DNA from: Escherichia phage ManiWeber_Bas99
Length of the DNA: 64,000 nucleotides
Direction: 5' to 3' (one strand)
Sequence record: PQ850618.1
The position numbers and the translations under genes were made by a program. Below the pieces are notes generated by a model that worked only from the letters and a program-made list of their open reading frames with translations, did no database searches and was not told the origin of the DNA. Positions 6,404 to 63,266 of the stretch are shown piece after piece; the first letter of the stretch is position 1, and each line of letters opens with the position of its first letter.

Positions 6404-6589
6404 AGAGGAAGTTATGCAAAAGATTATTCAGTCACGTTATGTTAAAGTGCGAAATATTAATTGCAACTCTTTGCTTTCTTGGAAATGGGCTGTTTATGAC
6501 TCGATGTTGATTGGCGTTTTAGTGGCAGGAGTGCTATTTAATATTCACTGAATTCATCGGCAAAGGATTGCCGAGAGTTTTATACGTAT

Positions 6590-6860
6590 AATGACGTATC
6601 ATCCGTATCAAGTAAGTTGTTGTTTTCAAAAGAATCTTACGGATGATACGGATGATACGCGTTGCCGCCGTACTATATAGGAATTCAAATAAATTAATTT
6701 AAAATTATATATCTAATTTAATTTTATTTTTTTATAAACTCTTATATGTGAAAAGTATCCGTATCATCCGTATCATCCGTATCACACCAGTGATAGCGCG
6801 GCTTATACACCGATACGGATAAAAATACGCCTCATTTTATCCGTATCATCCGTATCACAC
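6590..6860. repeat. iteron-like repeat element A
   Basis: Units of CATCCGTATCA in both orientations (6594-6610 forward, 6639-6660 reverse, 6756-6785 forward triple, 6811-6820 reverse, 6839-6858 forward) around an AT-rich core carrying GAATTC; homologous to the element at 58.7 kb. Confidence 0.6.
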
Positions 6861-58173: not shown

Positions 58174-58190
58174 TTATGATTAATGTTAAG

Positions 58191-58214
58191 AGGGCCAATC
58201 GGCCCTTTTTATTT
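58191..58214 (+). terminator. rho-independent terminator
   Basis: AGGGCC-AATC-GGCCCT hairpin followed by TTTTATTT. Confidence 0.6.
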
Positions 58215-58710
58215 GCCTGTGTAATGGGAGGCTTTTGTGGTTATTTACGATTCAAGGCTGTAATTTAAGAGAGCGAAAATATTATAATAATTTATCAAGA
58301 TTATTGCATATTGTGGCAATCAACGTTTATACGTATTTATGACAGTTTAATCCACTAAATAATACGGATAGAACAGTGAGGAAAATACAGCGGTGTATTT
58401 TAGTGTAAATATTGAATCAAAAATAAATAATTATGGTGCTATTATATACGCAGATTGTTTGTAATTTATAGGATATTTTATCGTGGAGTATTGGCTAACG
58501 GTGCGTTAGCCGTGGGTCTTGGTGCTTGTGGTGTTGATGCTCAGAATTTTAATAATGTTTTTAGTTTTAGTAATCGTAGTCAATGATGATACGTATAAGA
58601 AAATGAGAGTCACCCCTTCACAGGATATTGTACCGTGGCCCTGTGGCGCGCCGCGCCTGGGATTGCTGGTATACACTGGTGCTATTTTGCCGCGAAGGCA
58701 GTCATTCATA

Positions 58711-58952
58711 CGTATCATGACGTATCATTGGGCTATTGATTTATAAGGAAAAATACGCTGATACGGATGATACGGATGCAAACATAATATATATAGAATT
58801 CCAGAAAATTAATTAACTCCATTTTGAATTAATTTAAATTAATTTTTTTCTACATCCTCATACTTATACTAAACTTATATTTATACGTATTATCCGTAAG
58901 ATATAAGTAAAAACAAAGACTTGCGGCAATACGGATGATACGTCATGATACG
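58711..58952. repeat. iteron-like repeat element B
   Basis: CGTATCATGACGTATCA (58711-58727), GATACGGATGATACGGATG (58759-58778), AT-rich core with GAATTC, TTATCCGTAAG (58889-58899), ATACGGATGATACGTCATGATACG (58929-58952); same units and core as the element at 6.6 kb. Confidence 0.6.
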
Positions 58953-59166
58953 CTTCAACCAGCCAGCAGCGGCTAAGTCATTGATTTGCATAGCAAGCGG
59001 CGAAAGGGATGGATTTCTTTTATACGTATCAAACAGTACACCACGCACCACGGTCCGTTATCCATTCAGCAATATGATTTGTGTACGTTTATAGCCATAA
59101 TGAACATCAATCTGCACTTGAATATAATGTTCATCCATTGTATAATTCACACTATTAATTTGCACT

Positions 59167-59655
59167 ATGGGATTTTGCACTATGAGTCAAGATTATGTAG
59201 CGATGCCTGAAGACTTTGAAGACCCGCGATTTGCAGAGCACAATCAGGCTTTATTCGATGAGTTCATTGACCTTGTTATTCAGGGCCATGACATGCGCGC
59301 AGCTTTTGCACTAGTATTTGGAATGGAAGTTGCAACGGATAACTACACTGGCCAGCGAATCCTTTGCACGCAACGCAATCCATACTACAAGATGCGCTTC
59401 AAAAAGCGTATGGAAGAGATGCCACTCAAGGATTTGTGGAGCGTAAAAGGTGCAATTCACAATTTGGTTAAGCTTGTGCGTGATCCAGAAGTCGCAGCGT
59501 CAGCCAAGCTTAATGCTATTCGTGAACTGAATATCATCTACGGCATCACGATGATTGATGAAAACGGCAATAGTAAAATGGGCCGTTCCATGGACGATTT
59601 CTACAAGGATTTTGGAGAGGCGGCCAAAGAAGGTGAGCAATTCTCCCGCCACTAG
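59167..59655 (+). CDS. hypothetical protein
   Basis: 162 aa (alternative ATG at 59182); both candidate starts are immediately preceded by a copy of the TTTGCACTAT motif. Confidence 0.45.
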   Translation: MGFCTMSQDYVAMPEDFEDPRFAEHNQALFDEFIDLVIQGHDMRAAFALVFGMEVATDNYTGQRILCTQRNPYYKMRFKKRMEEMPLKDLWSVKGAIHNLVKLVRDPEVAASAKLNAIRELNIIYGITMIDENGNSKMGRSMDDFYKDFGEAAKEGEQFSRH

Positions 59656-59666
59656 CCAATTTGCAC

Positions 59667-59708
59667 TATAAAACGGCCCTAGAACACATCTTCTCCACTT
59701 CTAGGGCC
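59667..59708 (-). terminator. hairpin terminator candidate (10-bp stem GGCCCTAGAA/TTCTAGGGCC)
   Basis: Perfect 10-bp inverted repeat with a 14-nt loop between convergent genes; U-rich tract on the minus strand. Confidence 0.35.
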
Positions 59709-59769
59709 ATCGGTAATACGACGGGGAAGGTTACAACCATAAACGCGTTAGAAAGTGTATTATTATAAG

Positions 59770-60033
59770 TCATCTTTTAGTCACTTTACGTAACAATTTA
59801 CGACCTTCAGCCGTCCAATCGAACGACTCCACCAGCAGATTCGCACTATAACCTAAGATGATGCGCCCTTTCTCGTTATCGACCCGCCAACAAGTCTCGA
59901 ATAGCATTCGATTTGCACTATTAACTATCGCCGCAACGCGCGTAGGGTAAACGCAATTTGCACTATGGTCATAAAGGGATAAGGTGCGACCACTTCCGAT
60001 GGACAACGTAGCGATGAGAATGAGCGTATTCAT
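59770..60033 (-). CDS. hypothetical protein
   Basis: 87 aa; contains three in-frame SAN tripeptides encoded by the antisense of the repeated motif. Confidence 0.4.
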   Translation of the reverse strand: MNTLILIATLSIGSGRTLSLYDHSANCVYPTRVAAIVNSANRMLFETCWRVDNEKGRIILGYSANLLVESFDWTAEGRKLLRKVTKR

Positions 60034-60083
60034 AAGCCACCAATTTGCACTATGAAAAGCGACCCCGAAGGGCCGCCATTCGA

Positions 60084-60710
60084 TTAGATAATCTGGAAGG
60101 TGTAGGACTTGTTGCCGAACTCGAAGTTCAAGCGCCCAGCTTCCTTAAGCTTCATGCGGAAGCGAATGTGCTTGCTATCCGGTAATCCCAGCGCGGCGAA
60201 CGCTACGCGGACCGATTTGAACTCGCCTACACCCTCGACCATGACACCGTTACGGGTAAGACGCTTTTGCGCCACTTCCTTATTATCCCAGCTTTTTGCA
60301 ATACCTTCGCTATTCGAACGGCGATGGGAAGGAGTTCCATTTTGCACTACGCAATTTGCACTATCGTTTAAACCGCTCTTAACGAAGGCTTCATATTCTT
60401 CGTCGGTCATCGCGTCGAGTTCTTCCTGGGTCGGCTCAGCCTTTTTAACGACCGCACGCGCCTTATGCGTTTTTACATCGCTGGACACTTCCTCGCGCGA
60501 CTTCGCGTCTGGGATGGGCGATTCGTTGGACGGCTCATCTAGCGCGTTTAAGGACTCGATTAACGCGATGACGCGAGTCTCAGCGGTCCGGCGGTCCGAA
60601 AATTTCTTAATCGGCTTCGAACCGGAATTTGCATTATAAAATGCAACGAGGTCGGCGGTCTTAGTTGCGATAACGTCGCCGCTAGTCGAGAAACGATTTA
60701 AGCTAACCAT
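60084..60710 (-). CDS. hypothetical acidic protein
   Basis: 208 aa; SD AGGAG upstream of ATG; carries the motif as DSANCVVQ. Confidence 0.5.
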   Translation of the reverse strand: MVSLNRFSTSGDVIATKTADLVAFYNANSGSKPIKKFSDRRTAETRVIALIESLNALDEPSNESPIPDAKSREEVSSDVKTHKARAVVKKAEPTQEELDAMTDEEYEAFVKSGLNDSANCVVQNGTPSHRRSNSEGIAKSWDNKEVAQKRLTRNGVMVEGVGEFKSVRVAFAALGLPDSKHIRFRMKLKEAGRLNFEFGNKSYTFQII

Positions 60711-60790
60711 AATAAACTCCTATTTGTTAGGGCGCTAGGCGCGAAAGAATTTTATTAAAGCGCCGCGCACGACGCTCTAAAAATCCTCTC

Positions 60791-61075
60791 TTACGCTTCG
60801 ACGAGGGAGAAGGTCTCAAATTCTTCTTCGCCCATAACGAGTAAGATATTACCGATTTCGACCGCTTCGAAGAAATATCCGTTAACGTTTACTTCGAAGG
60901 CTTCGCGGTCCGATTCCGGTAGCGCCGCGTAAAGTTTAAAAGCCTCGGCGACCGTTACCCCACCCGCCTCGATAGTTTGGCCTACGTTCGCGGCGTAGAC
61001 TTCGGATAAAATTTGTTTTACGCCGTAGTTCTCGACGATAGCGTTACGAATAGAAGAAACGTTAAGAATAGCCAT
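60791..61075 (-). CDS. small protein, paralog family member 1
   Basis: 94 aa; N-terminus MAILNVSSIRN and internal VNVNGYFFEAVEIG parallel the 61710 gene; conserved CAACTAGGAG upstream. Confidence 0.5.
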   Translation of the reverse strand: MAILNVSSIRNAIVENYGVKQILSEVYAANVGQTIEAGGVTVAEAFKLYAALPESDREAFEVNVNGYFFEAVEIGNILLVMGEEEFETFSLVEA

Positions 61076-61299
61076 TTTAAACTCCTAGTTGGGAGAGGCG
61101 TTAACGACCTATTCGTTAACTCATCCCGTCCCGATATGAGTACATTATAATATAGTGTAGAAAAAAGTAAAGCACTTTTTCGATAAAAATGCGATAAATT
61201 ATTTTATCTTTTTTCTTTACTTCTTCGTACACTCGCGTATACTTGTTTATATCGAGACGGGCGATGGCCCTTTCTTCTACTAGCATCGGGAGCTTTATT

Positions 61300-61602
61300 A
61301 TGACTACTTTAATCTCTTCCATCCTTACTTACGACGAAGACCGCTTAACCGTTCGCTCTCTTATCGCCGCCGTTAACGCGGAACTAGAATCTAGCGCCAT
61401 TAAGGTCCGCGCGGTCGCCTTCATCGGCCTTTCCTTCGACGATATGAAGTATGCCGAACGTAGCGCCATCCGCTTCGCGAAGACCGACGACGAAGCCGTT
61501 ACCCTTATCGAGACGGTTACGCCGCGCGGCGAAGCGTTAATTATCGTCGAGTATATCGACGTAGAAGGCGATAAATCTTATAAACATTTTATCGCAGAAT
61601 AA
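61300..61602 (+). CDS. small protein, paralog family member 2
   Basis: 100 aa from ATG 61300 (GGGAG SD); MTTLISSIL... with conserved upstream TTTACTTCTTCGTACACT box. Confidence 0.5.
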   Translation: MTTLISSILTYDEDRLTVRSLIAAVNAELESSAIKVRAVAFIGLSFDDMKYAERSAIRFAKTDDEAVTLIETVTPRGEALIIVEYIDVEGDKSYKHFIAE

Positions 61603-61709
61603 CGAAAAAGTGCTTTACTTCTTCGTACACTAAGACTATAATGTTTTATATCGAGAGGGGATGAGGTAGCGAATAGGTCGCTGCCCTCCCGACCAACTAG
61701 GAGATTATT

Positions 61710-62000
61710 ATGATTACTTTAGCCGCTATCCGTTCCGCTCGCGTCGAGACTTCCGAAAACTCTAACGTATTTGGCGAAACCTTAGAGAGCGTTTATCTCT
61801 CTAACGTAGACGCAACTATCGAATCCATTTATGAGCCGATCAACTTCCTCGACCTTTACAAGTATCGCGATGAGGACATCGTGTCTTGCCGCGTAACGAT
61901 CAACGGCTTCGTCTATACGATTACCGAAATCGGCGGCGAATATCTCGCGGTCCCGCAACTCGGCGGCGAAGTAACTTATTTTAAAATCGTCTCCTTATAA
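61710..62000 (+). CDS. small protein, paralog family member 3
   Basis: 96 aa; MITLAAIRS...VTINGFVYTITEIGGEYLAV; conserved upstream box and CAACTAGGAG SD. Confidence 0.5.
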   Translation: MITLAAIRSARVETSENSNVFGETLESVYLSNVDATIESIYEPINFLDLYKYRDEDIVSCRVTINGFVYTITEIGGEYLAVPQLGGEVTYFKIVSL

Positions 62001-62019
62001 TACCCTTCCGTTACTAATA

Positions 62020-62045
62020 GGCCGCGCTTAGTCGCGGCTTTTCTT
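62020..62045 (+). terminator. rho-independent terminator
   Basis: GCCGCG-CTTAGT-CGCGGC hairpin followed by TTTTCTT. Confidence 0.55.
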
Positions 62046-62642
62046 CGCCCCTATCTCGGTGCGCTCCTACGCGAAAACTCCTTTATCCTTACCTTCGTCG
62101 TCGCATAATCTTCGTCGAGATGCTCCTTAGTTCGCATAACAGGTATTACGTTAAATGGAGAACATCGCGTAAGTCGTTGTTTTATATAGACACCTATATC
62201 GGACCGTTAGCGAGGGTCGCGTAAGTCGTTGTTTTATAAAGGCGCAAAACTTTCCCTTCGTTCCGAACTAAAACGAGGAATATGCCGACCCTTCGCCCGA
62301 AAATAGTACGCATGCGATATTACCGACATCTAGAATAATCCCTCCCGATATTATTACGCGCTCAATCATTAGCTTTCGAATCATTATGCTGCATACTATT
62401 ATGCGCCAAATCATTAGCCTTCGAATTGTAACGCTGGAAACTGTAACGTCGATTGATTATTGCGTTCGTGTGGTTTTTAGGACATGGGTCTTTTGGTGCG
62501 TTTTGCTACTTGATGGAATTTGCAGTACACTAATCAAAATACGACACATTTGGTCCACTAACTTTTCAAAGAAAAAGTCCTAGACAGTACCGTACTATTT
62601 TGTACCCACAGGAAATTTGCCGTACACTCCTGCGCGGCAGGC

Positions 62643-62670
62643 AAAAATAAAGGGCCGCACTAAGCGACCC
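62643..62670 (-). terminator. rho-independent terminator
   Basis: Minus-strand GGGTCGC-TTAGT-GCGGCCC hairpin followed by TTTATTTTT, downstream of the 62707 gene. Confidence 0.55.
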
Positions 62671-62706
62671 ACAACCCACGATTCACGGTTAAATCAGCAA
62701 CACCCA

Positions 62707-63087
62707 CTATTCACTCTTATGGGCATCACCAAAGCCATCAGCAATCTGGCTGATCAACGACTCAATGGACACGGTTTTACCAATTGATCGAGCGGTAATA
62801 GCAAGCATATTATCAATCAAACCACGATTGACTTCACATGTTCCAGGCTTTGACTCATCTTTAGGACCACCAAAAAGCTGGTCGCGCAGACTTTCAAGAG
62901 AACGCTCAATATTTTCCAACTTCTCTTCTAAATCGGATTGGCGACGTAAAACCCACGTCAAGTCACGGTTGCCAACTTCCAATCCATCAGAATAGCAAGG
63001 TGGAGCGTCAATTTTGATGCTGGAACCAAAAGCAATGCCGCTGCCTTTAGTATATGTGTGGCTAATAGAATCATTTTTATTTGACAT
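62707..63087 (-). CDS. hypothetical protein
   Basis: About 126 aa from the internal ATG at 63087 (the track ORF extends to 63153); coiled-coil-like centre. Confidence 0.45.
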   Translation of the reverse strand: MSNKNDSISHTYTKGSGIAFGSSIKIDAPPCYSDGLEVGNRDLTWVLRRQSDLEEKLENIERSLESLRDQLFGGPKDESKPGTCEVNRGLIDNMLAITARSIGKTVSIESLISQIADGFGDAHKSE

Positions 63088-63266
63088 ATCATTACCTTTA
63101 ATATTTGGGTGATTAACAATAACTATAATAAAGCCGCATAGCGCGGCATTCAAATCGGTTTGTTAATTGTAACGATTGAATTTACTTATCCAACCAATCA
63201 ATAAGCGCAATCATGGCTACAACAAATACTGCACTTATTGCTAATATGATCAAAAACATCACGAAA

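What the first reader, a model, noticed from the sequence alone, without database searches (positions are those of the whole stretch)
62046..62640. Terminator-flanked 600-bp non-coding region with three pairs of direct repeats
A + terminator (62020-62045) and a minus-strand terminator (62643-62670) bracket ~600 bp with no convincing ORF (the track ORF 62386..62583 is hydrophobic low-complexity). Inside are three direct-repeat pairs: CGCGTAAGTCGTTGTTTTATA (62166 and 62218), TATTA(C/T)GCGC(T/C)(C/A)AATCATTAGC(T/C)TTCGAAT (62351 and 62397) and GAA(A)TTTGC(A/C)GTACACT (62516 and 62612). This could be a small RNA locus, an operator cluster or a replication or packaging signal.
Basis: seen in the sequence. 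Interest (0 to 1): 0.55.

Follow-up and report, generated by a model that had tools for sequence, protein, structure and literature searches.

The report
Conserved non-coding element at phage genome end
This 600-bp gene-free stretch is where the right-hand physical end of a Wifcevirus (E. coli myophage) genome lies, at the inner edge of its 3.7-kb terminal repeat; it is probably a DNA signal for cutting and packaging the genome, not an RNA gene.

Summary
Two convergent terminators bracket about 606 bp (62046-62651) with no real gene, and all three direct-repeat pairs exist, are non-random, and occur nowhere else in the window.

The window is a Wifcevirus, a 68-kb E. coli myophage with a 3.5-3.9 kb direct terminal repeat (DTR). 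Five public records that define termini all put the left end at window 58821. Four of them (two by PhageTerm) put the right end at 62493|62494; WFC puts it at 62574. Both right ends fall inside the finding.

The region is as conserved as the best-conserved DTR genes: 15% variable sites against 27-53% at third codon positions of nearby genes, with almost no indels in 25 distinct relatives. Its ORFs show no coding signature. There is no Rfam match, no excess RNA structure and no DnaA box.

The middle "pair" belongs to an array of eight degenerate 15-bp units (62349-62468) that ends 25 bp before the terminus. One relative lacks three units.

Best reading: a cis-acting site for making the genome end and packaging it. 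That a terminus lies here is well supported. Protein binding to the repeats is inferred. It is a new example of a known kind, of moderate interest.

The parts
62019..62045 (+). Intrinsic terminator ending the rightward DTR genes (the 100-aa and 96-aa genes)
   Evidence: Hairpin GGCCGCGC/GCGCGGCU followed by a U-run, -13.9 kcal/mol. The homologue is annotated as a terminator in WFC, WFH and Mansfield. It is invariant in 25 relatives.
62046..62651 (.). Conserved non-coding element between the convergent terminators. 448 bp lie inside the DTR and 158 bp outside it.
   Evidence: Nucleotide diversity 0.044 and gap fraction 0.007, against 0.142 and 0.089 in the flanking genes. ORFs show no codon-position bias. 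The element is found only in Wifcevirus records, at 88-99% identity.
62165..62241 (+). D2: two copies of TCGCGTAAGTCGTTGTTTTATA(T/A)AG at 62165-62189 and 62217-62241, 52 bp apart. Each holds an IHF-like core on the minus strand (AAACAACGACTTA, one mismatch to the consensus).
   Evidence: 12% of positions vary among 25 relatives, mostly singletons. The IHF-like match is and is weak.
62213..62292 (+). Imperfect inverted repeat / hairpin that includes D2 copy 2
   Evidence: I1, 24-nt arms, 71% complementary. As DNA the fold is -16.3 kcal/mol, z -1.7. It falls in the only RNA-fold window with z below -2. Significance is doubtful.
62349..62468 (+). Array of eight degenerate 15-bp units (consensus AATYATTAnGC....).
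   Evidence: TRF finds period 15. Autocorrelation z is 5.3 at lag 15, 2.5-3.6 at lag 30 and 6.4-7.5 at lag 45. The periodicity is kept in 24 of 25 relatives; Bas100 lacks exactly three units, 45 bp. The motif is not enriched elsewhere in the window.
62426..62516 (.). Most conserved core of the element, containing the right genome terminus
   Evidence: About 9% variable positions among 25 relatives over 62438-62516.
62493..62494 (.). Right physical end of the genome, i.e. the right DTR boundary (...GGGTCTTT | TGGTGCG...), placed by homology
   Evidence: The DTR ends of Mansfield (PhageTerm, 3,673 bp), Ro157lw (PhageTerm, 3,533 bp), SP13 and WFH all map here.
62574..62575 (.). Alternative right DTR boundary, as deposited for phage WFC. 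WFC is the closest relative in this region, 98.8% identical.
   Evidence: The two DTR copies in the WFC record are 3,784 bp with 0 mismatches and end here.
62517..62628 (+). D3: AATTTGCNGTACACT at 62517-62531 and 62614-62628, just outside the DTR by the majority boundary. Only the central N varies among relatives.
   Evidence: GTACACT occurs 5 times in the window, 4 of them on the + strand at 61227, 61625, 62525 and 62622.
62629..62670 (-). Terminator of the leftward operon (hairpin 62670-62652 plus a U-run), followed by a second small hairpin at 62641-62629
   Evidence: The homologue is annotated as a terminator in WFC and WFH.
58821..62493 (.). The direct terminal repeat (one collapsed copy in this window). 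The left genome end is at 58821.
   Evidence: All five records with defined ends start at the homologue of window 58821.
59182..59655 (+). Small terminase subunit gene, inside the DTR and 361 bp from the left end
   Evidence: phmmer E = 7.2e-34 to PDB 7UXE, 'Small terminase'. 7UXE is the decameric TerS of Pbunavirus E217. The Mansfield record annotates the homologue as TerS.

Best explanation
The region is the cis-acting DNA site where the right end of the linear virion genome is made. Wifcevirus genomes have fixed ends and a DTR of about 3.7 kb. Replication intermediates are expected to carry one DTR copy per junction, so the terminase must cut sequence-specifically at two places: 58820|58821 and, inside this element, 62493|62494 (possibly 62574 in this strain).

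I propose that the invariant core at 62426-62516 holds the cut or nick site. I propose that the eight-unit 15-bp array immediately inside the end, together with the D2 and D3 pairs, is the docking platform for the recognition proteins. These would be the phage's ring-shaped small terminase and/or a DNA-bending host or phage factor, which position the large-terminase nuclease. Lambda cosB R-sites and the P1 pac hexamer arrays work this way (named from my own knowledge).

The array lies on the packaged side of the cut, as lambda cosB does. This end could therefore be the initiation end, packaged first. A role as the termination cut is equally possible. The two convergent terminators would keep RNA polymerase off the site.

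Shown: the repeats, their uniqueness in the window, the conservation, the non-coding nature, the terminus position by homology, and the TerS identity. Inferred: protein binding, the cutting mechanism and the direction of packaging.
For: 1. Four independently deposited DTR right ends, two of them PhageTerm-derived, map to window 62493|62494 and a fifth to 62574. All five left ends map to 58821.
2. The terminus lies in the best-conserved stretch of the element, with about 9% variable positions in 25 distinct relatives.
3. The whole 606 bp is under constraint. Variable sites are 15%, against 27-53% at third codon positions of neighbouring genes. Gap fraction is 0.007. By contrast, the non-coding DNA just outside the left end (58174-58820) has diversity 0.24 and gap fraction 0.30.
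4. All repeat motifs are unique to this locus in the 64-kb window, as expected for a single-copy packaging signal.
5. A 15-bp-periodic array of eight units ends 25 bp before the terminus and is retained across the genus.
6. The phage encodes a TerS homologous to the decameric, HTH-bearing E217 TerS.
7. The sister genus Pbunavirus is reported as headful and circularly permuted. It has no comparable non-coding gap downstream of its TerS gene. The element therefore goes with the fixed-end, DTR lifestyle.
8. It is not a gene or a structured RNA.
Against: - No terminus was measured for this phage itself. The position is transferred by homology, and WFC, the closest relative here, was deposited with an end 81 bp further right.
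- E217 TerS showed no appreciable DNA binding in vitro.
- The left and right end regions share no motif, so a single recognition protein for both cuts is not evident.
- The D1 part of the array is the least conserved part of the element, and Bas100 does without three units. Taken together, the repeats are not more conserved than the non-repeat parts (Fisher p = 0.64).
- All relatives are at least 88% identical, so conservation could partly reflect recent shared ancestry or recombination sweeps.
Confidence: 0.55

Rival explanations
1. Regulatory operator or decoy cluster, possibly with weak promoters. A phage regulator that recognises ...GTACACT binds the D3 sites as well as the two early-type promoters P1 (61216) and P2 (61614), whose spacers carry the same heptamer. 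The element would then tune early transcription or drive antisense transcripts into the end of the leftward operon.
For: - GTACACT occurs 5 times in 64 kb. Four are on the + strand within 1.4 kb: two in the spacers of the paralogous promoters TTTACT-N16/17-TATA(C/A)T and two in D3.
- In both D3 copies only the central N varies among relatives.
- Both D3 copies can be read as TTGnnn-17-TACACT (sequence inspection).
- Some relatives carry a 69-aa gene annotated 'transcriptional regulator' at the left edge of the element.
Against: - The candidate promoters score only 7-8 of 12 and were not reported by the scan.
- There is no + strand terminator downstream.
- The regulator gene is absent from this window and from many relatives that keep the element unchanged.
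- This reading does not explain 600 bp of constraint or the coincidence with the genome end.
Confidence: 0.12
2. A T5-like DNA-entry control region (injection-stop or pause signal). The DTR with its early genes would enter first, and the repeat-rich untranslated region at its inner edge would halt transfer until early proteins are made.
For: The architecture parallels T5 Repeat Region 3. That region is a 1.2-kb untranslated, repeat-rich stretch, better conserved than neighbouring ORFs. It lies mostly in the left DTR and overruns the unique DNA by 270 bp, and it has a 52-bp spacing feature. Here 448 bp lie inside the DTR and 158 bp outside, and D2 has a 52-bp spacing. Ro157lw's authors class the DTR as T5-like long.
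Against: - There are no DnaA boxes within one mismatch anywhere in 62046-62651, whereas the T5 model rests on eight of them.
- There is no large inverted-repeat partner elsewhere in the DTR.
- DTR proteins have no recognisable function, so no A1/A2 analogue can be claimed.
- The DTR carries the small terminase gene, not an obvious pre-early function.
- Two-step transfer has never been reported for this genus in the papers searched.
Confidence: 0.1
3. A mostly neutral spacer. The terminus merely happens to lie in an intergenic gap, and the repeats are relics of slippage duplications. The low divergence reflects recent ancestry or a recombination sweep.
For: - D1 is a tandem duplication that is polymorphic: Bas100 has one 45-bp block fewer.
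- All known relatives are at least 88% identical.
- As a class, the repeats are not more conserved than the rest of the region.
Against: - Variable-site density is about half or less of that at third codon positions in adjacent genes in the same genomes.
- Indels are almost absent over 606 bp in 25 genomes, while the other terminus-adjacent spacer (58174-58820) is riddled with substitutions and indels.
- D2 keeps 25 nt nearly identical while the 27-nt spacer between its copies has diverged completely.
Confidence: 0.1
4. A non-coding RNA gene, transcribed on its own between the two terminators.
For: The region is insulated by terminators and conserved. One 120-nt window (62190-62309, + strand) folds better than shuffles, z = -2.8.
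Against: - No Rfam family matches at gathering score or at E<=1 inside the element.
- There is no convincing promoter or internal terminator.
- Folding z-scores are 0 to +2 over most of the region on both strands.
- The best hairpin is not significant as DNA (z = -1.7).
- Relatives are too similar for a covariation test.
Confidence: 0.06
5. A replication origin, or a priming site used to duplicate the terminal repeat, with the 15-bp units acting as iterons.
For: There is an array of eight direct 15-bp units. Regenerating the DTR must involve DNA synthesis that starts at or near a boundary; this is the T7 model, summarised.
Against: - There is no AT-rich unwinding element: GC is 0.36-0.54 in 50-bp bins and 0.43 overall.
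- There are no DnaA boxes.
- The units are degenerate.
- A much more origin-like structure, many ATGATACGKAT repeats around an AT-rich core, lies at the left terminus and again at 6580-6860.
Confidence: 0.07

Closest known systems
T5 'Repeat Region 3' at the inner edge of the left terminal repeat (proposed injection stop signal; Davison, bioRxiv 10.1101/866236)
   Same: Both are long untranslated, repeat-rich blocks, better conserved than the neighbouring ORFs, that straddle the inner boundary of a long DTR. T5 overruns into unique DNA by 270 bp; here the overrun is 158 bp.
   Different: There are no DnaA boxes and no large inverted repeats with a partner elsewhere in the DTR. The element is half the size. 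There is no evidence of two-step DNA transfer in Wifcevirus, and no sequence similarity.
Terminase recognition and cleavage regions with repeated binding motifs next to the cut: lambda cosB R-sites plus an IHF site, P1 pac hexamer arrays, SPP1 pacL/pacR (named from my own knowledge, not tested here)
   Same: A unique locus with several copies of short motifs within about 30-350 bp of a sequence-specific end, on the packaged side of the cut. The phage has a ring-forming TerS with HTH motifs.
   Different: The ends here are blunt-type DTR boundaries according to PhageTerm, not cohesive ends or headful series. Binding has not been shown, and the E217 homologue did not bind DNA appreciably in vitro.
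T7/T3 concatemer junction: pac signals and short-repeat arrays flanking the 160-bp terminal repeat (T7 model summarised; details from my own knowledge)
   Same: Fixed ends, and a DTR present once per concatemer junction and duplicated during packaging. Short direct repeats flank the repeat boundary.
   Different: The DTR here is about 23 times longer. How long DTRs are generated is stated to be unknown. T7 needs transcription through the junction, whereas this element is walled off by convergent terminators.

Membership tests
DTR-boundary / terminus-generating packaging site | A fixed physical genome end maps inside the element | tested here: met
   By homology: four records end at window 62493 and one at 62574. 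Two were determined with PhageTerm. The end was not measured for this phage itself.
DTR-boundary / terminus-generating packaging site | The signal is unique in the genome | tested here: met
   The D1, D2 and D3 motifs and the 15-mer consensus cluster only here in the 64-kb window. About 4 kb of the genome lies outside the window.
DTR-boundary / terminus-generating packaging site | Sequence is constrained beyond the neutral expectation in relatives | tested here: met
   15% variable sites against 27-53% at third codon positions. Gap fraction is 0.007.
DTR-boundary / terminus-generating packaging site | Bound and cut by terminase; required in cis for packaging | not testable with these tools
   Needs EMSA or footprinting, in vitro cleavage and deletion genetics.
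T5-type injection stop region (Repeat Region 3) | An untranslated conserved block at the inner end of the DTR that overruns into unique DNA | tested here: met
   448 bp inside the DTR and 158 bp outside. It is more conserved than the flanking ORFs.
T5-type injection stop region (Repeat Region 3) | Paired DnaA boxes (TTWTNCACA) in conserved positions | tested here: not met
   No match with one mismatch or fewer between 62046 and 62651.
T5-type injection stop region (Repeat Region 3) | A large inverted repeat (about 131 bp) with a partner elsewhere in the DTR | tested here: not met
   In the 61900-62800 scan only short, 71-80% complementary arms were found; the rest of the DTR was not scanned for a partner copy. 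The D1-D3 motifs have no other copy on either strand of the window.
T5-type injection stop region (Repeat Region 3) | Two-step DNA transfer that depends on DTR-encoded proteins | not testable with these tools
   DTR proteins have no assignable function. Entry kinetics are unknown.
Known non-coding RNA family (Rfam 15) | Match to a covariance model at gathering score | tested here: not met
   0 hits in the window. At E<=1 the only hit is a chance-level match on the + terminator hairpin.
Iteron-type replication origin | Repeated initiator sites next to an AT-rich unwinding element, often with DnaA boxes | tested here: not met
   A 15-bp array is present, but there is no AT-rich block and no DnaA box.
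Lambda-type cos site | Cohesive single-stranded ends; IHF site between the TerS-binding repeats | tested here: not met
   Relatives have DTR ends, not cos ends, by PhageTerm. Only a one-mismatch IHF-like core occurs, in each D2 copy, which is not above chance as an independent event.

The most novel reading that the evidence does not exclude
The element is the recognition module that defines the boundary of a long DTR. A 15-bp-periodic array docks the decameric small terminase, possibly with phased IHF-type bends at the D2 sites 52 bp apart, to set a precise cut 25 bp away. If so, it would be the first defined cis-site for generating kilobase-long terminal repeats, a mechanism described as unknown. 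It would sit in a genus that can now be grown on E. coli K-12 derivatives (BASEL Bas98-101), which makes the question directly testable.
Probability: 0.3. Interest if true: 0.6.

Novelty: new member of a known kind. Interest (0 to 1): 0.42.

Why it matters
Published Wifcevirus work notes a terminal repeat of about 3.5-3.9 kb. In the library I could search, nothing describes what lies at its boundary.

This analysis shows that the inner boundary sits in a genus-wide conserved, gene-free, terminator-insulated element, with a periodic motif array next to the cut. That gives a concrete target for learning how long terminal repeats are cut and regenerated.

There are practical uses too. Wifceviruses are candidates for therapy and biocontrol. 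Knowing the true ends and the cis-signals matters for genome rebooting and engineering, for correct genome orientation in databases, and for judging transduction risk: fixed-end packagers behave differently from the headful Pbunavirus relatives.

Tried and rejected
- Rfam at gathering score on the whole window and at E<=1 on the region: nothing.
- tRNA/tmRNA scan: none.
- Sliding-window RNA folding on both strands: no signal except one window. That hairpin is not significant as DNA.
- Coding tests on all eight ORFs of 30 aa or more in the region: no codon-position bias, and several ORFs are broken in relatives.
- DnaA boxes: none in the region. GATC sites: none. IHF consensus: only a one-mismatch core inside D2.
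- Shared motifs between the left-end and right-end regions: k-mer sharing is at chance, and there is no meaningful local alignment around the two cut sites.
- Are D2 and D3 decayed copies of the early promoters P1/P2? Local alignments score within the range of shuffles (20-28 of 300 shuffles do as well). Only the GTACACT heptamer clustering remains as a lead.
- More distant relatives of the element: blastn 'distant' mode, two IMG/VR scans and one metagenome scan found only Wifcevirus genomes and four additional close (91-99% identical) metagenome contigs. No covariation or deep-conservation test was possible.
- Contig ends in Logan and ENA assemblies as independent evidence of termini: they end at 62571, 62611, 62781 and elsewhere, and assembler breakpoints cannot be interpreted.
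- Pfam and PHROGs on ten flanking proteins: no functions.

Full report
**What the window is.** The region and its flanks match 28 phage records, all Wifcevirus (E. coli/Shigella myophages of 67-72 kb, family Lindbergviridae), at 89-95% identity. A more sensitive search with only the 606-bp gene-free stretch finds the same 28 records at 88-99% identity and nothing else. Two IMG/VR scans and one metagenome scan added only further close Wifcevirus contigs. The phage is distantly related to Pseudomonas Pbunavirus (PB1-like) phages.

**Checking the observation.**
- All three repeat pairs are real. D2 is 25 nt at 62165 and 62217 (96% identical, spacing 52). D1 is a 45-nt tandem at 62348 and 62393 (78% identical). 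D3 is 15 nt at 62517 and 62614 (93% identical, spacing 97).
- They are far beyond chance and occur nowhere else in the 64-kb window.
- The flanking terminators fold as expected. Their homologues are annotated as terminators in WFC, WFH and Mansfield.
- The stretch is non-coding. Variable sites in its eight ORFs of 30 aa or more show no third-position excess (for example 10/9/5 and 4/5/4). Neighbouring genes show 4/1/44, 11/15/80, 12/10/34 and 25/22/43.

**The key fact: the genome end lies here.** Wifceviruses have fixed ends and a long DTR. WFC and WFH are reported with a repeat of about 3.7 kb. Mansfield has 3,673 bp by PhageTerm. Ro157lw has 3,533 bp by PhageTerm and is classed as T5-like long DTR.

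I mapped the deposited ends onto the window.
- All five records with defined ends start at the homologue of window 58821 (...TTAACTCC | ATTTTGAATT...).
- Four of them (Mansfield, Ro157lw, SP13, WFH) end at the homologue of 62493 (...GGGTCTTT | TGGTGCG...).
- WFC ends at 62574.
- In the four records that carry both copies, the copies are identical (0 mismatches).

In this collapsed window the DTR is therefore 58821-62493. The finding's region straddles its inner (right) boundary, with 448 bp inside and 158 bp outside. WFC is the closest relative in this stretch (98.8% identical, and 100% identical over 62455-62574). I therefore cannot say which of the two positions applies to this phage. Both are inside the finding.

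**Conservation.** This first comparison uses a 13-genome alignment of 58.1-64.0 kb.

| Segment | Nucleotide diversity | Gap fraction |
|---|---|---|
| Element 62046-62651 | 0.044 | 0.007 |
| TerS gene | 0.039 | 0.001 |
| 96-aa gene (left flank) | 0.142 | 0.000 |
| 126-aa gene (right flank) | 0.089 | 0.000 |
| Spacer outside the left end, 58174-58820 | 0.24 | 0.30 |

- 15% of the element's sites vary, against 27-53% of third codon positions in nearby genes.
- With 25 distinct sequences, the most conserved stretches are 62126-62165, 62226-62265 and 62426-62516. The last of these contains the terminus.
- D2 (12% variable) and D3 (10%) are well kept. In both D3 copies the only common variable position is the central N.
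- D1 is the least conserved part, and phage Bas100 lacks exactly 45 bp of it.
- As a class, the repeats are not more conserved than the rest of the element (Fisher p = 0.64). The whole element looks constrained, not only the repeats.

**A new structural observation.**
- D1 is not just a duplicated 45-mer. Tandem Repeats Finder reports a 15-nt period.
- Autocorrelation over 62349-62498 gives z = 5.3 at lag 15, 2.5-3.6 at lag 30 and 6.4-7.5 at lag 45.
- Written in register, 62349-62468 is eight degenerate 15-mers (TATTATTACGCGCTC, AATCATTAGCTTTCG, AATCATTATGCTGCA, ...) with consensus AATYATTAnGC.
- The array ends 25 bp before the 62493 terminus.
- The periodicity is present in 24 of 25 relatives (lag-15 z = 4.2-6.0). 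Bas100 has five units.
- The motif is not enriched elsewhere in the window.

**What it is not.**
- There is no Rfam hit in the window, and none inside the element at E<=1. There is no tRNA or tmRNA.
- RNA folding z-scores are 0 to +2 across most of the element on both strands. One window (62190-62309, + strand) reaches z = -2.8. Its hairpin is not significant as DNA.
- The + strand has no internal sigma-70 promoter of 9/12 or better, and there is no internal terminator.
- There are no DnaA boxes with one mismatch or fewer and no GATC sites. GC content is 0.43, with no AT-rich block.
- The left-end and right-end regions share no motif beyond chance.

**Context that supports a packaging role.**
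- The gene at 59182-59655, inside the DTR and 361 bp from the left end, is the small terminase. phmmer gives E = 7.2e-34 to PDB 7UXE. 7UXE is the decameric, HTH-bearing TerS of Pbunavirus E217.
- Pbunaviruses are reported as headful and circularly permuted, although reports conflict. Pbunavirus Pa193 has tightly packed genes, with no comparable gap, downstream of its TerS gene.
- The element therefore appears together with fixed-end DTR packaging in Wifcevirus.

**Most likely mechanism.**
- *Shown:* there is a unique, conserved, non-coding, terminator-insulated element. The right genome end of close relatives falls in its most conserved core. A periodic motif array abuts that end. The phage has a ring-type TerS.
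- *Inferred:* the element is the cis-site at which terminase, with TerS and/or DNA-bending factors bound to the array and to D2/D3, makes the right-end cut or nick in concatemers that carry one DTR per junction. The DTR would then be regenerated by strand-displacement synthesis, as in the T7 model. For long DTRs the mechanism is stated to be unknown.
- *Direction:* the array is on the packaged side of the cut, as lambda cosB is (my own knowledge). This end may therefore be the initiation end. A termination role is equally compatible.
- *Insulation:* the convergent terminators would shield the complex from transcription.
- *Confidence:* about 0.85 that a genome terminus lies in the region, and about 0.55 for the full functional statement.

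**Rivals.**
1. *Regulatory operator or decoy cluster.* GTACACT occurs five times in the window. Four are on the + strand within 1.4 kb: two in the spacers of the paralogous promoters P1 (61216) and P2 (61614), and two in D3. This is a real lead, but it does not explain the rest of the element.
2. *T5-like injection-stop region.* T5 Repeat Region 3 is the closest architectural analogue. Its defining DnaA boxes and large inverted repeats are absent here.
3. *Neutral spacer with slippage relics.* This is contradicted by the near absence of indels and by the contrast with 58174-58820.
4. *ncRNA.* There is no support.
5. *Origin or priming site.* There is no unwinding element or DnaA box. A more origin-like structure lies at the left end instead.

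**Comparison with known systems and novelty.** It works most like a terminase recognition and cleavage region (lambda cosB, P1 pac, T7 pac type). It looks most like the T5 Repeat Region 3 arrangement. It is not a member of the T5 iss class, because tested defining features fail. It is not a cos site, because relatives have DTR ends.

That Wifceviruses have such a DTR is published. The element at the boundary, its conservation and the 15-bp array are not described in any paper I could search. I file it as a new member of a known kind, a DTR-boundary packaging cis-element, of moderate interest.

**Limits.**
- The terminus position is transferred by homology and was not measured for this phage.
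- All relatives are close, so there is no power for covariation or deep-conservation tests.
- No transcriptome was available.
- Protein binding is untested. The only biochemical datum on a homologous TerS is negative for DNA binding in vitro.

Noticed in passing
window 58700-59035 and window 6580-6860: The left genome end (58821) lies in an AT-rich core flanked by many copies of ATGATACG(G/T)AT: 17 hits with one mismatch or fewer in the window against 1.9 expected. One flanking pair is a perfect 18-nt inverted repeat at 58711-58728 / 58935-58952. The same motif cluster, around a similar AT-rich core, recurs in the 560-bp gap between a head-fibre-like gene and a DUF2213 gene at about 6580-6860. 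It looks like iterons plus an unwinding element, or sites for a phage regulator.
   Followed up: partly
window 58174-58820: The non-coding DNA just outside the left terminus is hypervariable among relatives (diversity 0.24, gap fraction 0.30). Conservation switches on at the terminus itself. This is the opposite of the right-end element.
   Followed up: partly
window 61216-61243 and 61614-61642: Two paralogous sigma-70-type promoters (CTTTACTTCTTCGTACACT...TATA(C/A)T...GTTT(T)ATATCGAGA) carry CGTACACT in the spacer. The same heptamer is the core of the D3 repeat. This may be a shared regulator site.
   Followed up: partly
between window 61989 and 61990 (relatives F13, SP13, ECML-117, Ro157lw, Eco4M-7; L005 5216-5425): These relatives carry an extra 69-aa gene, annotated 'transcriptional regulator' in F13, between the 96-aa gene and the + terminator. 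The window and many other relatives lack it, and the element itself is unchanged.
   Followed up: no
window 61780-62000 and 60820-61060: The 96-aa and 94-aa DTR genes each exist as two strongly diverged allelic forms among otherwise 90-95% identical genomes (local diversity 0.16-0.26). This points to mosaic recombination inside the DTR.
   Followed up: no
window 62664-62690: Just past the minus-strand terminator there is a heptamer microsatellite (CGACCCA / CAACCCA / CGATTCA) whose length varies between relatives. Mansfield has about four extra CGACCCA units; most others have one fewer than the window.
   Followed up: no
window 62025-62045 versus 62646-62666: The two terminators bracketing the element are inverted copies of each other, with the same CTTAGT loop (21 nt, 71% complementary). 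A third terminator with a similar GCCGCG stem lies at 63133-63147.
   Followed up: no
window 62170-62182 and 62222-62234 (minus strand): Each D2 copy contains AAACAACGACTTA, one mismatch from the IHF consensus WATCAANNNNTTR, preceded by an A/T-rich run. The two sites are 52 bp apart, about five helical turns. As an independent event this is not above chance.
   Followed up: partly
window 59118-59146: A near-consensus sigma-70 promoter (TTGAAT-17-TATAAT) sits just upstream of the small terminase gene. That is unusual for what is normally a late function. It was read from the sequence, not from a scan.
   Followed up: no
L043 (Logan SRR22877456 contig) = window 60760-62611: A public sequencing run contains a contig 100% identical to this part of the window. 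Raw reads suitable for terminus mapping of this very phage probably exist.
   Followed up: no
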